Below are positions 5,702-21,312 of a DNA stretch of 50,362 nucleotides, piece after piece. Source of the stretch: an uncultured Candidatus Saccharibacteria bacterium (lineage in GTDB: Bacteria; Patescibacteriota; Minisyncoccia; Minisyncoccales; Staskawiczbacteraceae); contig CAYVRE010000001.1 in assembly GCA_964453095.1 (NCBI GenBank), forward strand, positions 3,440 to 53,801. The letters run 5' to 3'. Position 1 is the stretch's first letter. The number at the start of each line of letters is the position of its first letter. The position numbers were made by a program, and so were the translations under genes. The notes under the pieces are model-generated. The model worked only from the letters and a program-made list of their open reading frames with translations, had not been told where the DNA came from and searched no databases.

Positions 5702-7901
5702 ATGGAACAATCAAACACGCCGTTGATAAAACACATAAATGACTTTTTAGATTATTGCGACGTAGAAAAAGGATTGCGCAATAATACTCAGAAGAATTAC
5801 CAGGAATATTTAAACAAATTCTTTGGGTGGTTAAAATATAAGAATTTAGAGGGCCTGCTCCCCCACCAATTGACCCCAGAGCAGATTTGGGAGTATAGAT
5901 TATACCTCTCTCGCTATCAAAACCCCAAAACAGGCAAATCCCTTAAAAAGACCACCCAGAACTACTATTTGATCGCTTTAAGGGCGTTTTTAGCCTATTT
6001 TATAGCCAAAGACATAGTTTCACTGCCACCAGGCAAAGTAACCCTTCCTAAGCCCGATAAAAGCGTTAAAACCGTCAAATTCCTTAATATAGAGCAGGTT
6101 GAGAAGCTTTTGATAGCTGCCGAGCCAAAAGACGATATTAGGCTAAGGGATAGGGCTATTTTAGAGACCTTATTCTCAACCGGGCTTAGAATCGCAGAGT
6201 TAGTAGCACTTAATACCGAACAGTTCGCGAATATAAAAAACAAGAAAGATTTTGAGCTAGGAGTTATCGGAAAAGGAGGCAATCCTAGAACAGTCTATTT
6301 CTCAGAAAGGGCTTTAGAATGGATTAAAAAATATTTAGCAACTAGAAAAGACAAAGAAAAGCCTTTATTTTTGAATGCCGGTGGCAGAAAAGATGCTGAC
6401 AGGCGCCTTACTGCGCGCTCTATTGAAAGGATCGTTAAAAAGTATGCTATATTAGCTGGTATCCCTATTTTTACAACTCCTCACACGTTAAGACATTGCC
6501 TCCATCCTTCAACCCGTATTGCCTCTACGGAGAAAATATTATCCGCCCGAGAATTATTTTTCGCAACTTCCCCGTCGCTCATTTCACTAGACCTGCAAAA
6601 GCTTAAAATAAAAAAATCTGTTGTAACTAGTAAAAGTTATCACATCGCCTCGCTTTGCTCGATTTGGGCTGACGGTTATAACTTGGTTTGTTCACCACTT
6701 CATAGAGTTTTTACACTTGGACCAGAAGGAGTAACAGAAATTAAGGTTAAGGAATTAAAACTTGGAGACTACATAATGGGGGTAAAAGAAATTGATTTTG
6801 TCGGGAAAAACTATTTAAACCCTCGCCTGTGGCGTTTGATTGGTTATGTACTAGGAGACGGTACTGTGAGCGAAAGACGAAGAGCAGTGATATTACACGA
6901 TAAAGATATAAACTTTCTAAAATTTTACCAGAATCTAGCTAGAGAATTATTGTGTCTTAACCCAAAGATAGAAAAAGTAAAAAATATAAATTCGTACAAA
7001 TTGACTATATACGATCAAGAACTAGTAAAGTTTTTCCAAGAAATTAAAATTAAGGAGAGGGCTAATATTGCCAGGATTCCATCCAGGCTTTTAGGGGCTA
7101 CTAAAGAAGAGGTGTCCCAATTTATAGCCGGATTTTATGACGCCGAAGGAAATAGCGGGACAATTAGATTTTTTTCCTCGAGCGTTGAGTTATTAAAGGA
7201 CATGCAAATTTGTCTTTTACGTTTTGGCATAGATTCGCATATAAATAAAAGAACGCGAACCGTAATGCTTCCTCAAAAAAGAGAGTTTACTCATGATTTT
7301 TTTACTCTTCATATTCTACACCAGCCAGATCAAAAGCGGTTTATAAAAGAAATACCCACCCTAAAAACCAAAAAATTAATAATTAGCAATGATTACATAG
7401 GAGACAAGATTCCAGTCAATAAAATTCTCTACAAAATAAGAAAAGAATATAATTTGGATTGATTCGTTGAGACAATTCGGAATTAATGACTTGTACAGAT
7501 ATACACGTAATGATATGATTCCTGTAAAAAACACTGTGAATAAAATTATTTTGCAACTAAAGAAAAAAGGATACAATTCATATTTATTGGGTATCCTCAA
7601 AAATATAGCCAATAACGACGAGGCCAAATGGTTAAGAGTAAAAGAAAAAAAACAACTACCTTTTGGAAGATACTCCACTTTTGATTTTGGTGCTACCCAT
7701 CACAACCTTATAACGGATGGTATTGTAAGCCATAATTCCTACGCTACCGACCTTCTTACTCAGGGCGTTGATTTGCGTTCAATCCAAGAATTTCTAGGGC
7801 ATAGAAGCATAATGACCACCCAGATATATACCCACGTAACAAACAAGCGCTTGCGTGATATACACCGTCAGTTCCATAGTGGAAAAGATTTAAAGGAGTA
7901 A
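5702..7901 (+). CDS. Tyrosine recombinase, XerC/XerD family, intein-containing, with reading frame broken once (ORFs 5702-7462 and 7467-7901)
   Basis: N-extein carries the SAM-like N-domain, TGLRIAEL (box I Arg) and HTLRH. C-extein reads [34 protein letters not shown] (catalytic Tyr). The two ORFs are in different frames, and both frames are open only in 7440-7462. Confidence 0.8.
6497..7736 (+). mobile_element. Intein (Hint splicing blocks plus double-motif LAGLIDADG homing endonuclease) in the Xer active site
   Basis: Starts with Cys (TGC 6497) directly after HTLRH. Block A is CLHPSTRI and a block B-like SPLH is present. LAGLIDADG motifs are [11 protein letters not shown] and [10 protein letters not shown]. 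It ends ...ITDGIVSHN (7736), followed by +1 Ser. Length is 1240 nt, i.e. 413 codons plus 1 nt. Confidence 0.8.
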
Positions 7902-7961: not shown

Positions 7962-8459
7962 ATGGCAATAAAAAAAGATATTAATATAGCAGCTTTGGTA
8001 AACAACGACGGATGCTTTGATCTGCAGTTCCGCAAAGATACCAGGCACGAAAGAACCAATTCCCCCACTTATTACAGATGGAAGGTTCAGTTTGTGGTGA
8101 CCGGCCCCAAGGCCAATGCCAAGATGCTGGAAAAGATAAAGGATGAAATGGGCTGTGGCGAGGTTTGCATCACAAAAGACCAGGCAAGGTTTTCGGTGCA
8201 GAAGATTGATGATATCTCCGGAACAGTCGTGCCCTTTTTCCGGAAAAATACGCTGGCTGAAAAAAAGAAGAAGGATTTTGAGCTCTGGGCCAAAAGCGTT
8301 GAGATAATTCAAAGAAATAAAGGAAAATATTTAACTGCTTGGAAAAAAAACGACCTGTGTTCTCTTATAGAAATCCAAAAGTCATCTGCTAAATATAAGA
8401 ACAGGCCGAGGCAGCCCAAGTGGCTGGAAATGGCGCAAGCTCTGTCAAAGACATCTTAA
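7962..8459 (+). CDS. Free-standing single-motif LAGLIDADG homing endonuclease
   Basis: 165 aa. N-terminal IAALVNNDGCF matches the LAGLIDADG helix. The downstream pattern (FSVQKIDDISGTVVPFFRKNTLAEKKKKDFELWAKSVEII) is typical of intron-type LAGLIDADG_1 enzymes. Confidence 0.6.
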   Translation: MAIKKDINIAALVNNDGCFDLQFRKDTRHERTNSPTYYRWKVQFVVTGPKANAKMLEKIKDEMGCGEVCITKDQARFSVQKIDDISGTVVPFFRKNTLAEKKKKDFELWAKSVEIIQRNKGKYLTAWKKNDLCSLIEIQKSSAKYKNRPRQPKWLEMAQALSKTS

Positions 8460-9703: not shown

Positions 9704-11348
9704 CCTCGGGTTTAATCGCCACTCTAATAAACTCTTTAAACAAGGGGTGTGGTTTTAACGGCCTTGATTTGAACTCCGGATGGAATTGGGATGCCACAAA
9801 AAATGGGTGGTTTTTTATCTCAATTATTTCAACCAAATTGGATTTGGGATTTATACCGGCCACAACCAGGCCCTTTTCTTCAAGCAGTTGGCGGTAGTTA
9901 TTGTCTACTTCGTATCTGTGGCGATGCCTTTCCGAGATTACATACGGCCCTTTGTTCTGCCCTGCCCAATCTTTATAGGCCCTATGGCTGATGGTGTTTG
10001 GCTGAACTTGGCAATCATATGCACCAAGGCGCATGGTCCCGCCATAATGTTTTTCCTGCAATAGATTTTTTTGTTCTTCCATTACGTCAATCACCGGATT
10101 CTTGGCTTTTTTATCAAACTCCCTGGAGGTGGCGTCCTTTATGCCCGCCACATTTCTGGCAAACTCAATCACCGACAATTGAAGGCCGAGGCACAATCCT
10201 AAAAATGGGATTTTGTTTTTTCTGCAATATTCTATGGCTTTAATTTTTCCTTCCACTCCCCTGCTTCCGAATCCGCCCGGTACAATTATCCCGGCGTATT
10301 TTTTGAGTTCCTTTAATGCCGCCGGGTTCTTTTCAAATTCTTCAGCCGAGAGCCAGCTGATTTTTGCTTTTCTGTTTTGAGAGAAAGCAGCATGTTTAAT
10401 GGCTTCTATAACAGATATATATGAATCCATTAAGGTAAAACTGCCTGTTTCAAAGTATTTTCCGACAATCCCTATATTAACAACCTCGGGAGAGTTTCTT
10501 ATTAGTTTTACCAGTTTATTCCAATCATCTAAGTTGCTCGGCTTGGTTTTCATGCCGAATTTTTTCATAATCCTGTCGCCCATCCTCTCTTTTTCAAAAT
10601 TAACCGGCACTTCGTAAATAGATTTTACATCCGGCGCAGAAATTATATCATCCTTTTCTACGTTACAGAATGTTGCCACCTTTCTTTTCCTCGGCTCATC
10701 CAGCGCTATAACAGACCTGGCCAGAATCATATCCGGCTGTATGCCGGCTGAGTTTAATGTTCTGACCGCGTATTGCGTGGGTTTTGTTTTCATTTCTCCT
10801 ATCATCTTAGGCACCGGGAAATAACTGACTAAAATAAAAAGCACGTCTTTTGGATGTGCAAGCTTCATCATTCTGGCGGCTTCCAAAAACAGCATGTTCT
10901 GGTATTCTCCCACAGTACCTCCGATTTCAATTAAAACAAATTCTGCTTTGACTTTTTTCCCGGCTTTTTCAATTCTGGATATAACTTCATTGGGAATATC
11001 GGGCACAACTTCAACGCACTTGCCGCCGTACTCCAGGTTTCTTTCCCGGTTTATCACCGACTGATAAACCCGTCCGGTGGTCATATAGTTTCCGTCGTAG
11101 ATATTTTCGTCCAGAAATCTTTCGTAGTTTCCCACATCTTGGTCGCATTCTGTGCCGTCATCGGTCACAAAAACTTCCCCGTGCTCGACAGGATTCATTG
11201 TCCCGGCATCAACGTTTATATACGGGTCAATCTTTATAGCAGTTGCCTTATAGCCCTTGCTTTTTAAGATTCTGCCTATTGAAGCAGTGGCTATACCTTT
11301 ACCGATGCCGGACATTACTCCGCCTGCAACGAAAATGTATTTTGTCAT
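9696..11348 (-). CDS. pyrG: CTP synthase
   Basis: 550 aa. N-terminal [15 protein letters not shown] and the GATase nucleophile GLCLGLQ. Its 3' end overlaps rpmA convergently by 8 nt. Confidence 0.95.
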
Positions 11349-20598: not shown

Positions 20599-20901
20599 TT
20601 AGCAAGACTGTTTTTGCATGCTCATGCGAGCTAGTATTTTCCCTCTGAGTTCAGAGTATTCTTCTTCAGACCGCCTTACGCGCCCTGATCGGCTGATCAG
20701 ATCGAAGTCTTGGTCCTGCATCTTCCTTGCCAAGGCGATAATATCATCAAGTATTTTCACATCGGTCGCGGTTAGCACGCGATTCTGCATAATCCTGCTG
20801 GTAATCTGCGCTCTGATGCGCAGAAGAGAAAACTGATCATCAATATGGACGGCCAGCTCATTCAACAGCTCTTTGTCGCTCATATCGGACGGCTCTTTCA
20901 T
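20599..20901 (-). CDS. Hypothetical protein (100 aa), orphan
   Basis: AGGAGG lies 6 nt before the ATG. Predicted all-helical, GC-rich relative to core, with hairpins and a T-run downstream (20540-20598). Confidence 0.5.
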   Translation of the reverse strand: MKEPSDMSDKELLNELAVHIDDQFSLLRIRAQITSRIMQNRVLTATDVKILDDIIALARKMQDQDFDLISRSGRVRRSEEEYSELRGKILARMSMQKQSC

Positions 20902-20916
20902 GGCACACCTCCTGTG

Positions 20917-21183
20917 TTAAGTAAGCCTAAAACAGTTCGACGGGATGGGTTCACCCACTATTATTCTTTCGCGCAGCTCATCGACATCGGACCAATTGAA
21001 GCCGAGCTCAGGGTGCGAGGCAAAACGGCCGGCGGATTTTATGGCTTCTCCGGCGCCCGCATCGTTGTAGAAAAAGATGTACGCTTCCCCGCCCTTTATC
21101 AGGCAGCGGATGTTTATATCCTTTGTCTCGCTGAGAAGAGCTAATCCCCTCGCCATCATTAATTCTCCGATGTCTTTTTTCAT
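20917..21183 (-). CDS. Hypothetical protein (88 aa from the SD-proximal ATG), orphan
   Basis: AAGGAAAGGA lies upstream of ATG 21183 (MKKDIGEL...). The gene is 15 nt upstream of the 100-aa ORF and directly downstream of the tRNA-like gene. Confidence 0.45.
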   Translation of the reverse strand: MKKDIGELMMARGLALLSETKDINIRCLIKGGEAYIFFYNDAGAGEAIKSAGRFASHPELGFNWSDVDELRERIIVGEPIPSNCFRLT

Positions 21184-21235
21184 AGGACAATCCTTTCCTT
21201 TTGAAAACAAAAAATACAATTTTCAACGAGCGGAG

Positions 21236-21312
21236 TGGAGCCGATAGGATTCGAACCTACATATTCCACCCTGCTTTCGCAGGGGTGCTGTCCTATATCA
21301 GCTTACGGCCCC
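21236..21312 (-). ncRNA. tRNA-Ala-like RNA lacking an anticodon loop
   Basis: Hand fold: GGGGCCG-TAA-GCTG-ATATAGGA-CAGC-A-CCCCTGC-GAAA-GCAGGGTGG-AATAT-GTAGG-TTCGAAT-CCTAT-CGGCTCC-A. It has a 7-bp acceptor stem with G3:U70 and A73, plus canonical D and T arms. The anticodon arm is replaced by a 6-7 bp helix closed by a GAAA tetraloop. Confidence 0.7.

What the first reader, a model, noticed from the sequence alone, without database searches (positions are those of the whole stretch)
5702..7901. Intein with a LAGLIDADG endonuclease inserted in the active site of a Xer-type tyrosine recombinase, plus a 1-nt frame break
The recombinase sequence runs ...TPHTLRH | C LHPSTRI ... ITDGIVSHN | SYATDLL...[15 protein letters not shown]. 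The insert starts with Cys and ends with His-Asn followed by Ser, which is the canonical intein splice-junction chemistry. It also has block A/B-like motifs and two LAGLIDADG helices. It splits the conserved HxLRH box from the H/W-Y catalytic end, and inteins typically sit at such highly conserved catalytic sites. The insert is 1240 nt (413 codons plus 1). The two ORFs share an open overlap only at 7440-7462. Removing one A from the A4 run at 7441-7444 gives a continuous ...[17 protein letters not shown]... sequence. So this is either an assembly or homopolymer error, or a recently inactivated intein, which would inactivate the only Xer gene in this window. I cannot say from memory whether Xer recombinases are a catalogued intein host.
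Basis: partly seen in the sequence, partly recalled or inferred. Interest (0 to 1): 0.7.

Follow-up and report, generated by a model that had tools for sequence, protein, structure and literature searches.

The report
Frame-broken intein inside a Xer recombinase
A self-splicing, self-copying protein element (an intein with a homing endonuclease) sits in the active site of this bacterium's chromosome-resolving Xer recombinase, and a small lesion, most likely a 14-base deletion, has broken its reading frame, which would disable the gene if the lesion is real.

Summary
A 1240-nt insert (6497-7736) interrupts a Xer-type tyrosine recombinase gene (5702-7901) between HTLRH and SYATDLL. It starts with Cys and ends with His-Asn followed by Ser. 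It matches Pfam Intein_splicing and LAGLIDADG_3 above threshold, and its model (pLDDT 92) resembles solved endonuclease-containing inteins.

Removing it in silico gives a 960-nt gene that aligns without gaps to intein-free xer genes of syntenic Ca. Staskawiczbacteria-like relatives (up to 92% aa identity).

The same intein at the same site occurs in over 50 species-level genomes of CPR bacteria and DPANN-type archaea. Every complete copy is one intact ORF, so the frame break here is unique.

The break lies exactly where this intein is 5 residues shorter than its nearest relatives. Both reading frames match those relatives across an AAGAA overlap. One 14-nt deletion therefore explains the shortfall and the frame shift better than an extra A.

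No other gene in the window looks broken, and no other lesion is present. This points to a very recent inactivation, or less likely an assembly error.

It is a standard kind of intein in a host protein for which I found no published description.

The parts
5702..6496 (+). N-extein. It holds the SAM-like N-terminal domain and the first part of the catalytic domain of a Xer-type tyrosine recombinase (R163 at 6188, K191 at 6272, H261 at 6482, R264 at 6491, H265 at 6494).
   Evidence: Pfam Phage_int_SAM_1 and Phage_integrase on the spliced product. Aligns to E. coli XerD 1A0P, E 8.7e-37. Invariant residues in A1. Coordinates.
6497..6800 (+). N-terminal splicing region of the intein. Block A is Cys1 (CLHPSTRI, 6497-6520) and block B is S-P-L-H ([10 protein letters not shown], 6683-6712).
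   Evidence: Cys1, Thr6 and His69 are invariant in A2. Pfam Intein_splicing spans residues 16-413. The model shows a beta-rich Hint fold.
6809..7366 (+). Double-motif LAGLIDADG homing endonuclease domain. Motif 1 is [14 protein letters not shown] (6830-6871) and motif 2 is [16 protein letters not shown] (7112-7159). Both acidic residues are retained.
   Evidence: Pfam LAGLIDADG_3, 67.5 bits in 2 stretches. G120/D121 and D215/A216/E217/G218 are conserved. Foldseek matches I-DmoI and the endonuclease domains of PI-PfuI and TliVMA.
7440..7459 (+). Frame break. Frame 2 and frame 0 are both open only here. The inferred scar of a 14-nt deletion lies on the AAGAA overlap at 7443-7447.
   Evidence: frames; the P306-R334 segment is 29 aa here against 31-38 in 54 relatives; codon-level match of both frames to L001, L002 and L081.
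7440..7736 (+). C-terminal part of the intein, read in frame 0. It comprises a helical linker/DNA-binding-like region, block F ([17 protein letters not shown], 7671-7721) and block G (IVSHN, 7722-7736).
   Evidence: W378, D396, F397, H412 and N413 are invariant or nearly so and are retained. Model strands 376-412 complete the Hint fold.
7737..7901 (+). C-extein. It starts with the +1 Ser (TCC, 7737-7739), carries His-III (H700, 7800) and the catalytic Tyr (Y709, 7827), and ends at the stop codon 7899-7901.
   Evidence: It aligns without gaps to the 3' end of intein-free xer in L080.
7460..7462 (+). Premature TGA that ends ORF1. The product would be N-extein, Hint-N and endonuclease, lacking blocks F/G and the catalytic Tyr.

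Best explanation
The locus is a xer gene for a single Xer-type tyrosine recombinase in a Ca. Staskawiczbacteria-like CPR bacterium. A canonical class-1 intein carrying a double-motif LAGLIDADG homing endonuclease has invaded it.

The intein sits one residue after the His-x-x-Arg active-site motif (HTLRH|SYATD). The N-extein therefore carries Arg-I, Lys, His-II and Arg-II, and the C-extein carries His-III and the Tyr nucleophile.

The intact form would work as follows (inferred from established intein chemistry):
- Cys1 makes the thioester.
- Ser+1 attacks it.
- Asn413 cyclises, and the exteins are ligated into an active 319-aa Xer.
- The endonuclease cuts intein-free xer alleles at the conserved TPHTLRH/SYATD coding site, and repair copies the intein in (homing).

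The element belongs to a widespread Xer-intein family of CPR bacteria and DPANN-type archaea. It was probably acquired horizontally and recently in this lineage, because all of its closest extein relatives lack it.

In this genome the intein ORF is broken in the variable linker between the endonuclease and block F. The most likely cause is one 14-nt deletion between AAGAA microhomologies. If so, the locus now encodes a truncated precursor that cannot splice and lacks the catalytic Tyr, which makes it a very recent xer pseudogene.
For: Shown:
- Profile hits above threshold.
- A confident model (pLDDT 92.3, pTM 0.90) matches the TliVMA intein 7QSS (E 3e-25, TM 0.71), PI-PfuI, PI-TkoII and PI-SceI. 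A sequence profile hits PI-PfuI over its full length.
- Cys1, block B His and His-Asn are invariant across homologues, and the +1 residue is Ser or Cys.
- The same insertion site occurs in about 57 species-representative genomes, and the roughly 52 complete copies are all single ORFs.
- The 120 best extein hits are all intein-free proteins of 314-351 aa, up to 92% identical.
- L080 and L082-L085 are syntenic (murG-gltX-small ORF-xer-LAGLIDADG_1-uppS-L27-pyrG).
- The spliced 960-nt extein aligns without gaps to L080 xer at 86.7% nt identity.

Evidence that the lesion is a deletion:
- The P306-R334 segment is 29 aa here, against 35 in the nearest relatives and 31-38 in all 54.
- Frame-2 ATA AGA AAA GAA and frame-0 AAG AAT ATA ATT TGG each match relatives that carry three extra codons between them.

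Evidence against systematic homopolymer error:
- 500 runs of 5 nt or more lie inside intact long ORFs.
- The window is 91% coding.
- No other split gene is apparent.

Evidence that the break is recent:
- Every invariant intein residue is retained.
- The C-extein differs from L080 mostly at synonymous sites.
Against: - No reads and no second copy of this particular intein exist in the searched collections. The best intein identity is 51%, so the break cannot be verified independently.
- An older in-frame 15-nt deletion plus a 1-nt insertion or sequencing error in the A4 run fits the sequence equally well, at the cost of two events.
- The complete lack of further decay is also what an artefact would look like.
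- No co-conversion tract marks a recent homing event.
- The donor lineage is unsampled.
- Splicing and endonuclease activity are inferred, not tested.
Confidence: 0.6

Rival explanations
1. The frame break is a sequencing or assembly artefact. In the cell the gene is one intact ORF of about 732 aa (or about 737 aa), and it splices normally into a functional Xer.
For: - The break lies in low-complexity A-rich sequence that includes an A4 run.
- Every conserved intein and extein residue downstream is intact.
- All of the roughly 52 complete relatives are intact ORFs.
Against: - About 500 longer homopolymers within genes show no frame errors, and no other ORF in 50 kb looks split.
- A one-base error does not explain why the same spot is also 5 residues shorter than in the nearest relatives.
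Confidence: 0.3
2. The two ORFs are expressed separately or recoded. Either a +1 ribosomal frameshift in 7440-7459 rejoins them, or translation restarts at TTG 7467 or ATG 7515 after the TGA at 7460-7462. In the second case the two pieces associate like a split intein and trans-splice to give active Xer.
For: - The break lies after the endonuclease domain and before block F. This is roughly where natural split inteins are divided (own knowledge, not tested here).
- The ORF1 stop and the ORF2 TTG are 4 nt apart.
- Genes in this window generally lack Shine-Dalgarno motifs, so the absence of one before ORF2 is not informative.
Against: - None of 54 relatives has this arrangement, so it is not a conserved device.
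- No recognisable slippery or stimulatory frameshift motif was seen by eye.
- The C-fragment would be far longer than known split-intein C-halves.
- There is no evidence of translation.
Confidence: 0.06
3. The insert is not an intein but some other insertion in xer, such as an IS element, a group II intron ORF, a domain fusion or a bacterial intein-like domain.
For: None beyond the fact that the insert is not a multiple of three.
Against: - Hint and LAGLIDADG profile and fold matches.
- Canonical Cys1, His-Asn and Ser+1 conserved across the family.
- Codon-precise boundaries against intein-free alleles.
- No Rfam intron hit in the window.
Confidence: 0.01

Closest known systems
Endonuclease-containing class-1 inteins with solved structures: TliVMA/PhoVMA (7QSS, 7QST), PI-PfuI (1DQ3), PI-TkoII (2CW7), PI-SceI (1VDE)
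   Same: - A Hint splicing fold split by a double-motif LAGLIDADG endonuclease, plus an extra helical region.
- Cys1, block B His and a C-terminal His-Asn with a nucleophile at +1.
- Insertion in a conserved active-site motif of a DNA/nucleotide-handling enzyme.
- Foldseek E 3e-25 to 1e-16 and TM up to 0.71.
   Different: - Sequence identity is only 10-19%.
- The host protein is a tyrosine site-specific recombinase rather than a V-ATPase, ribonucleotide reductase or polymerase.
- This copy is frame-broken.
Unpublished 'XerD/intein/homing endonuclease' proteins in CPR and DPANN metagenome bins (P0001-P0074; loci L001-L057, L081)
   Same: - The same insertion point (H-x-x-R-H|C...H-N|S).
- The same domain order.
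- 31-52% intein identity.
   Different: - All complete relatives are single intact ORFs with inteins of 415-430 aa. This one has 413 codons plus 1 nt and is split.
- Their exteins are at most 58% identical to this one. The true extein relatives (72-92%) lack the intein.
RecA/RadA 'recombinase inteins'
   Same: An intein interrupts a recombination enzyme, so protein splicing gates a DNA-recombination activity (titles and abstracts listed: PMC5238726, PMC11409957, PMC11377839).
   Different: The host fold and chemistry are unrelated: a P-loop strand-exchange ATPase against a type-IB-topoisomerase-like tyrosine recombinase. The insertion site differs. No conditional splicing has been shown here.
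Naturally split inteins / 'fractured genes' (Dassa et al. 2009, PMC2677866)
   Same: Two adjacent ORFs carry the N- and C-halves of an intein and its host protein.
   Different: Here the split is a frameshift within one gene. It is unique to this genome, and the endonuclease is still fused to the N-half. No independent expression signals are evident.

Membership tests
Intein (class 1, Hint domain) | N-terminal nucleophile (Cys/Ser) as the first intein residue, directly after the N-extein | tested here: met
   Cys at 6497-6499 follows HTLRH. It is invariant in 20 of 20 aligned homologues.
Intein (class 1, Hint domain) | Block B T/S-x-x-H motif | tested here: met
   S-P-L-H lies within [10 protein letters not shown] (6683-6712). 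The His is invariant, and relatives have S or T at -3.
Intein (class 1, Hint domain) | C-terminal His-Asn followed by a Ser/Thr/Cys +1 extein residue | tested here: met
   SHN|S at 7728-7739. His-Asn is invariant, and +1 is Ser in 19 of the 20 aligned homologues and Cys in 1.
Intein (class 1, Hint domain) | Hint fold / profile match | tested here: met
   - PF14890 scores 45.6 bits against a cut-off of 35.8.
- The AF2 model has pLDDT 92.3.
- Foldseek hits 7QSS at E 3e-25 and TM 0.71.
- The NCBIfam intein_Cterm mini-model was below cut-off (11.9 against 15.6).
Intein (class 1, Hint domain) | Precise, in-frame insertion relative to an intein-free allele of the host gene | tested here: not met
   The insertion is precise: the spliced gene aligns without gaps to the L080 xer, 960 nt against 960 nt. 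It is not in frame, because the insert is 1240 nt (3 x 413 + 1). This copy is therefore a disrupted member, or the sequence is wrong.
Intein (class 1, Hint domain) | Autocatalytic protein splicing | not testable with these tools
   Needs expression of a repaired precursor.
LAGLIDADG homing endonuclease (double-motif, intein-type, PF14528) | Two LAGLIDADG helices, each ending in a catalytic acidic residue | tested here: met
   LIGYVLGDG (D121) and IAGFYDAEG (E217). PF14528 scores 67.5 bits in 2 stretches. I-DmoI-like fold.
LAGLIDADG homing endonuclease (double-motif, intein-type, PF14528) | Site-specific cleavage of the intein-free allele | not testable with these tools
   The candidate target is the L080/L082 sequence around ...CACACG(A/C)TCCG(T/C)CAT|(AGC/TCT)TACGC(C/T)ACC....
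Xer-type tyrosine recombinase | Catalytic R-K-H-R-H/W-Y set and two-domain architecture | tested here: met
   - R163, K191, H261, R264, H700 and Y709 are invariant in A1.
- Phage_integrase scores 130.9 bits, with SAM-like domains.
- Match to XerD 1A0P at E 8.7e-37.
Xer-type tyrosine recombinase | Assignment to XerC, XerD or XerA by NCBIfam equivalog cut-offs | tested here: not met
   XerD 227.7 against 329.6, XerC 218.7 against 335.15, XerA_Arch 196.8 against 220. It is Xer-like by similarity but cannot be assigned to one subfamily.
Xer-type tyrosine recombinase | Acts at a chromosomal dif site in dimer resolution | not tested
   No dif search was attempted, and only 50 kb of the genome is available.
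Split intein / programmed recoding | Arrangement conserved in relatives, with independent expression or recoding signals | tested here: not met
   None of the roughly 52 complete relatives is split. No start-site signal can be judged, because the genome lacks Shine-Dalgarno motifs.

The most novel reading that the evidence does not exclude
The frame break is real but not lethal. Translation terminates at TGA 7460-7462 and restarts a few bases downstream (TTG 7467 or ATG 7515). This yields an N-piece (N-extein, Hint-N and endonuclease) and a C-piece (Hint-C and C-extein) that associate and trans-splice. That would be a newly born split intein caught at its origin, in the active site of a chromosome-resolving recombinase.
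Probability: 0.05. Interest if true: 0.7.

Novelty: new member of a known kind. Interest (0 to 1): 0.4.

Why it matters
This is a textbook-type intein, so the mechanism is not new. Three points give it some value.

1. **A new host protein.** Tyrosine site-specific recombinases of the Xer type do not appear among intein hosts in the survey and reviews I could search. Yet the same allele turns out to be widespread in the ultra-small CPR bacteria and in DPANN-type archaea. In these organisms, protein splicing would gate chromosome-dimer resolution.

2. **Signs of horizontal spread.** In the archaeal XerA-type hosts the intein is more similar to this one than the exteins are. This points to horizontal, possibly cross-domain, spread between organisms that share habitats.

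3. **A possible failure of the usual safeguard.** An intein normally survives because any mutation in it kills the host gene. If the break is genuine, this genome shows an intein lesion that has taken the host gene down with it. The intein-free relatives give a ready-made homing-site substrate for testing the endonuclease.

Tried and rejected
1. **Exact-product look-up of ORF1.** Not on record.

2. **Single-protein scan of GTDB genomes for close relatives of the intein.** Nothing found. The alignment-based scan worked.

3. **Two metagenome scans.** One used a gapped DNA pattern across the break and one used the intein protein. Neither found a close copy, so the frameshift could not be cross-checked.

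4. **Co-conversion test.** Substitutions private to the window are spread evenly along the extein and are not clustered at the junction, so there is no signal of a recent homing tract. The TCC/AGC Ser-codon difference is private to L080 and is not a mark of homing.

5. **N-terminal truncation of the closest intein-bearing hit (P0001/L081).** I suspected a second frameshifted example. It is a scaffold gap of Ns.

6. **Search for other split genes in the window, as a sign of homopolymer-error-prone assembly.** None found. Only 10 ORFs were profile-checked.

7. **Shine-Dalgarno check before ORF2.** Uninformative, because most genes here lack such motifs.

8. **Neighbouring genes on a 'Nanoarchaeota' contig (L013).** Not diagnostic of domain.

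9. **Literature.** Seven searches plus reading Novikova et al. 2016 found no description of a natural Xer or tyrosine-recombinase intein. That paper's supplementary host lists are not held.

10. **UGA-as-sense recoding.** Rejected, because frame 2 hits TAA eight codons later (read).
Full report
**1. Observation**

- ORF1 (5702-7462, 586 aa) is in frame 2. The downstream reading that ends at 7901 is in frame 0 and is open from 7440.
- Frame 0 is closed upstream by TAA at 7437-7439. Frame 2 is closed by TGA at 7460-7462. The frames can therefore only be joined within about 20 nt.
- The insert between ...TPHTLRH and SYATDLL... is 6497-7736, which is 1240 nt, or 413 codons plus one base.

**2. What it is**

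The insert, repaired by removing one base, matches two Pfam families above their curated cut-offs.
- Intein_splicing: 45.6 bits against a cut-off of 35.8.
- LAGLIDADG_3: 67.5 bits, two stretches.

The in-silico spliced product matches Phage_integrase (130.9 bits) plus the SAM-like N-terminal domains. It also matches NCBIfam XerD, XerC and XerA models at E 1e-58 to 1e-67. All of these are below the equivalog cut-offs, so it is Xer-like but cannot be assigned to one subfamily. Its best solved relative is E. coli XerD 1A0P (E 8.7e-37).

Structural and profile evidence for the intein is consistent.
- A profile of the intein family hits PI-PfuI (1DQ3) over its full length, and the V-ATPase inteins.
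- An AlphaFold2 model built with that alignment is confident (pLDDT 92.3, pTM 0.90).
- Its weakest stretch (residues 321-330, pLDDT 63) lies a few residues downstream of the frame break, which is at about residue 315-316.
- Foldseek ranks the TliVMA intein 7QSS first (E 3e-25, TM 0.71). PI-PfuI, PhoVMA, PI-TkoII and PI-SceI follow, and I-DmoI matches the endonuclease domain.

All diagnostic residues are present:
- Cys1.
- Block B, S-P-L-H.
- Both LAGLIDADG motifs with their acidic residues (GYVLGDG and AGFYDAEG).
- Block F, D-F.
- Block G, S-H-N, followed by the +1 Ser.

The intein splits the Xer active site. R163, K191, H261 and R264 lie in the N-extein. His-III (H700) and the Tyr nucleophile (Y709) lie in the C-extein.

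**3. Relatives with the intein**

A protein search with the intein alone returned 74 strong hits.
- Nearly all are single proteins of about 690-723 aa combining Phage_integrase, Intein_splicing and LAGLIDADG_3.
- They come from Patescibacteria/CPR bins (Woesebacteria, Liptonbacteria, Brennerbacteria and others). A few come from bins labelled Nanoarchaeota or Thermoprotei.
- JGI's pipeline already calls some of them 'site-specific recombinase XerD/intein/homing endonuclease'.
- In 20 aligned homologues the junction is H-x-x-R-H|C ... H-N|S, with Cys at +1 in one case.

A scan of one genome per GTDB species found the same allele in about 57 genomes.
- These span many CPR lineages and DPANN-labelled archaea.
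- Every complete copy (about 52) is one uninterrupted ORF, with an intein of 415-430 aa.
- The nearest intein is only 50-52% identical to this one.

**4. Relatives without the intein**

A search with the spliced extein gave the opposite picture.
- The best 120 hits are all intein-free proteins of 314-351 aa, 72-92% identical. Several come from Ca. Staskawiczbacteria.
- Five of their contigs (L080, L082-L085) share the window's gene order: murG-gltX-small ORF-xer-LAGLIDADG_1-uppS-L27-pyrG.
- The window's spliced extein DNA (960 nt) aligns to the 960-nt xer of L080 without a single gap, at 86.7% identity.
- The insertion is therefore codon-precise, between CAT (His265) and the Ser codon.

Intein-bearing relatives have exteins at most 58% identical to this one. 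Within the window's own clade the intein is so far unique to this genome. I infer recent horizontal acquisition by homing from an unsampled donor.

A test for a co-conversion tract at the junction was negative. The intein is more AT-rich (28-38% GC) than its flanks (38-44%).

**5. The frame break**

Three observations bear on whether it is an error or a mutation.

(a) There is no sign of a systematic homopolymer problem.
- The window is 91% coding.
- Its roughly 45 long ORFs show no other split.
- The ten suspicious or neighbouring ORFs I profile-checked are either complete families or have no hit.
- Gene lengths match those of L080.
- 500 homopolymers of 5 nt or more lie inside intact ORFs.

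(b) The break coincides with a unique length deficit.
- Between the invariant intein residues P306 and R334 the repaired window sequence has 29 residues. The 54 relatives have 31-38, and the three nearest (L001, L002, L081) have 35.
- Five of the missing residues lie immediately at the break.

(c) At codon level both frames look ancestral.
- Frame-2 ATA AGA AAA GAA (I R K E) matches L002 ATT AGA AAA GAT.
- Frame-0 AAG AAT ATA ATT TGG (K N I I W) matches L001 AAG AAA ATT ATT TGG.
- Relatives have three extra codons between these blocks.
- In the window the two blocks overlap on AAGAA at 7443-7447.

A single 14-nt deletion (3 x 4 + 2) between AAGAA microhomologies reproduces the present sequence exactly. 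It explains both the shortfall and the +1 frame. The alternative needs two events at the same place: an old in-frame 15-nt deletion, then an extra A or a read error.

I therefore favour a genuine deletion (about 0.6) over an artefact (about 0.3). It must be very recent, for two reasons.
- No other lesion exists, and all invariant residues remain.
- The C-extein differs from L080 mostly synonymously, with 4 amino-acid changes in 55 codons at about 80% nt identity.

No second copy of this intein exists in the searched collections, so this cannot be settled here.

**6. Consequence and mechanism**

If the break is real, ORF1 yields N-extein, Hint-N and endonuclease without blocks F/G. It cannot splice, and the catalytic Tyr is not attached, so the only Xer gene in the window is null.

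Rescue by +1 frameshifting, or by re-initiation followed by trans-splicing of the two halves, cannot be excluded. There is no supporting signal, and no relative shares the arrangement. I give this about 0.06.

The splicing chemistry and the homing mechanism are inferred from family membership. They were not tested.

**7. Comparison with what is known, and novelty**

Architecture and chemistry are those of classical endonuclease-containing inteins (PI-PfuI, VMA inteins, PI-SceI). What differs is the host.
- The 2016 survey of prokaryotic inteins lists DnaB, RNR, polymerases, helicases, topoisomerases, RecA/RadA and others among its top hosts. It never mentions integrase or Xer in its main text, and its supplementary lists are not held.
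- Seven literature searches found no paper on a natural intein in a tyrosine recombinase.
- The family is nonetheless abundant in public data and machine-annotated.

I therefore rate it a new member of a known kind. Its interest is moderate and comes mainly from the family-level picture: wide CPR/DPANN distribution and intein/extein decoupling. Spliced exteins of the archaeal-type hosts pass the XerA_Arch cut-off. Their inteins are 38-46% identical to this one, while their exteins are only 26-35% identical. The possible capture of an intein-caused gene death adds to this.

Noticed in passing
window 7962-8459 (+): A free-standing single-motif LAGLIDADG_1 protein (165 aa, PF00961, 48.5 bits) lies directly downstream of xer. 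It sits at the same position in all five intein-free relatives (L080, L082-L085). It is 74-82% identical to them, with no internal indels (only the second residue is missing in three). It looks like a conserved, possibly domesticated, gene rather than a mobile homing endonuclease. It belongs to a different LAGLIDADG family from the intein's endonuclease.
   Followed up: partly
L006, L013-L015, L020, L037, L039 and proteins P0018, P0020, P0024, P0037: The same intein sits at the same site in archaeal XerA-type recombinases. Their spliced exteins pass the NCBIfam XerA_Arch cut-off. Their inteins are 38-46% identical to the window's, but their exteins only 26-35%. In CPR hosts the extein is the more similar part. 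This suggests horizontal, possibly cross-domain, intein spread between CPR and DPANN organisms. The domain of the bins was not confirmed.
   Followed up: partly
window, upstream of about 25 gene starts: Almost no gene has a recognisable Shine-Dalgarno motif. Leaders are simply AT-rich. The only clear AGGAG is before the gene whose start codon is at 11348, on the minus strand.
   Followed up: no
loci L003, L004, L007-L010, L016, L028, L037: Several species-representative MAGs carry this CPR-type Xer-intein but are titled 'uncultured Gammaproteobacteria', 'Nevskiaceae', 'Pseudomonadales' or 'Chloroflexi'. Their Xer exteins resemble the CPR ones (45-55% identity to the window). The record labels may be wrong, or the contigs mis-binned.
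   Followed up: no
window 20599-20901 and 20917-21219 (-): Two adjacent 100-aa ORFs on the same strand and in the same frame are separated by 15 nt. Neither has a Pfam hit. They could be a tandem pair of small genes or one gene with an in-frame stop.
   Followed up: no
window 21236-21312 (-): A third tRNA match scores only 34.3 bits (cut-off 29), against 63-73 bits for the other two. It may be an unusual or degenerate tRNA.
   Followed up: no
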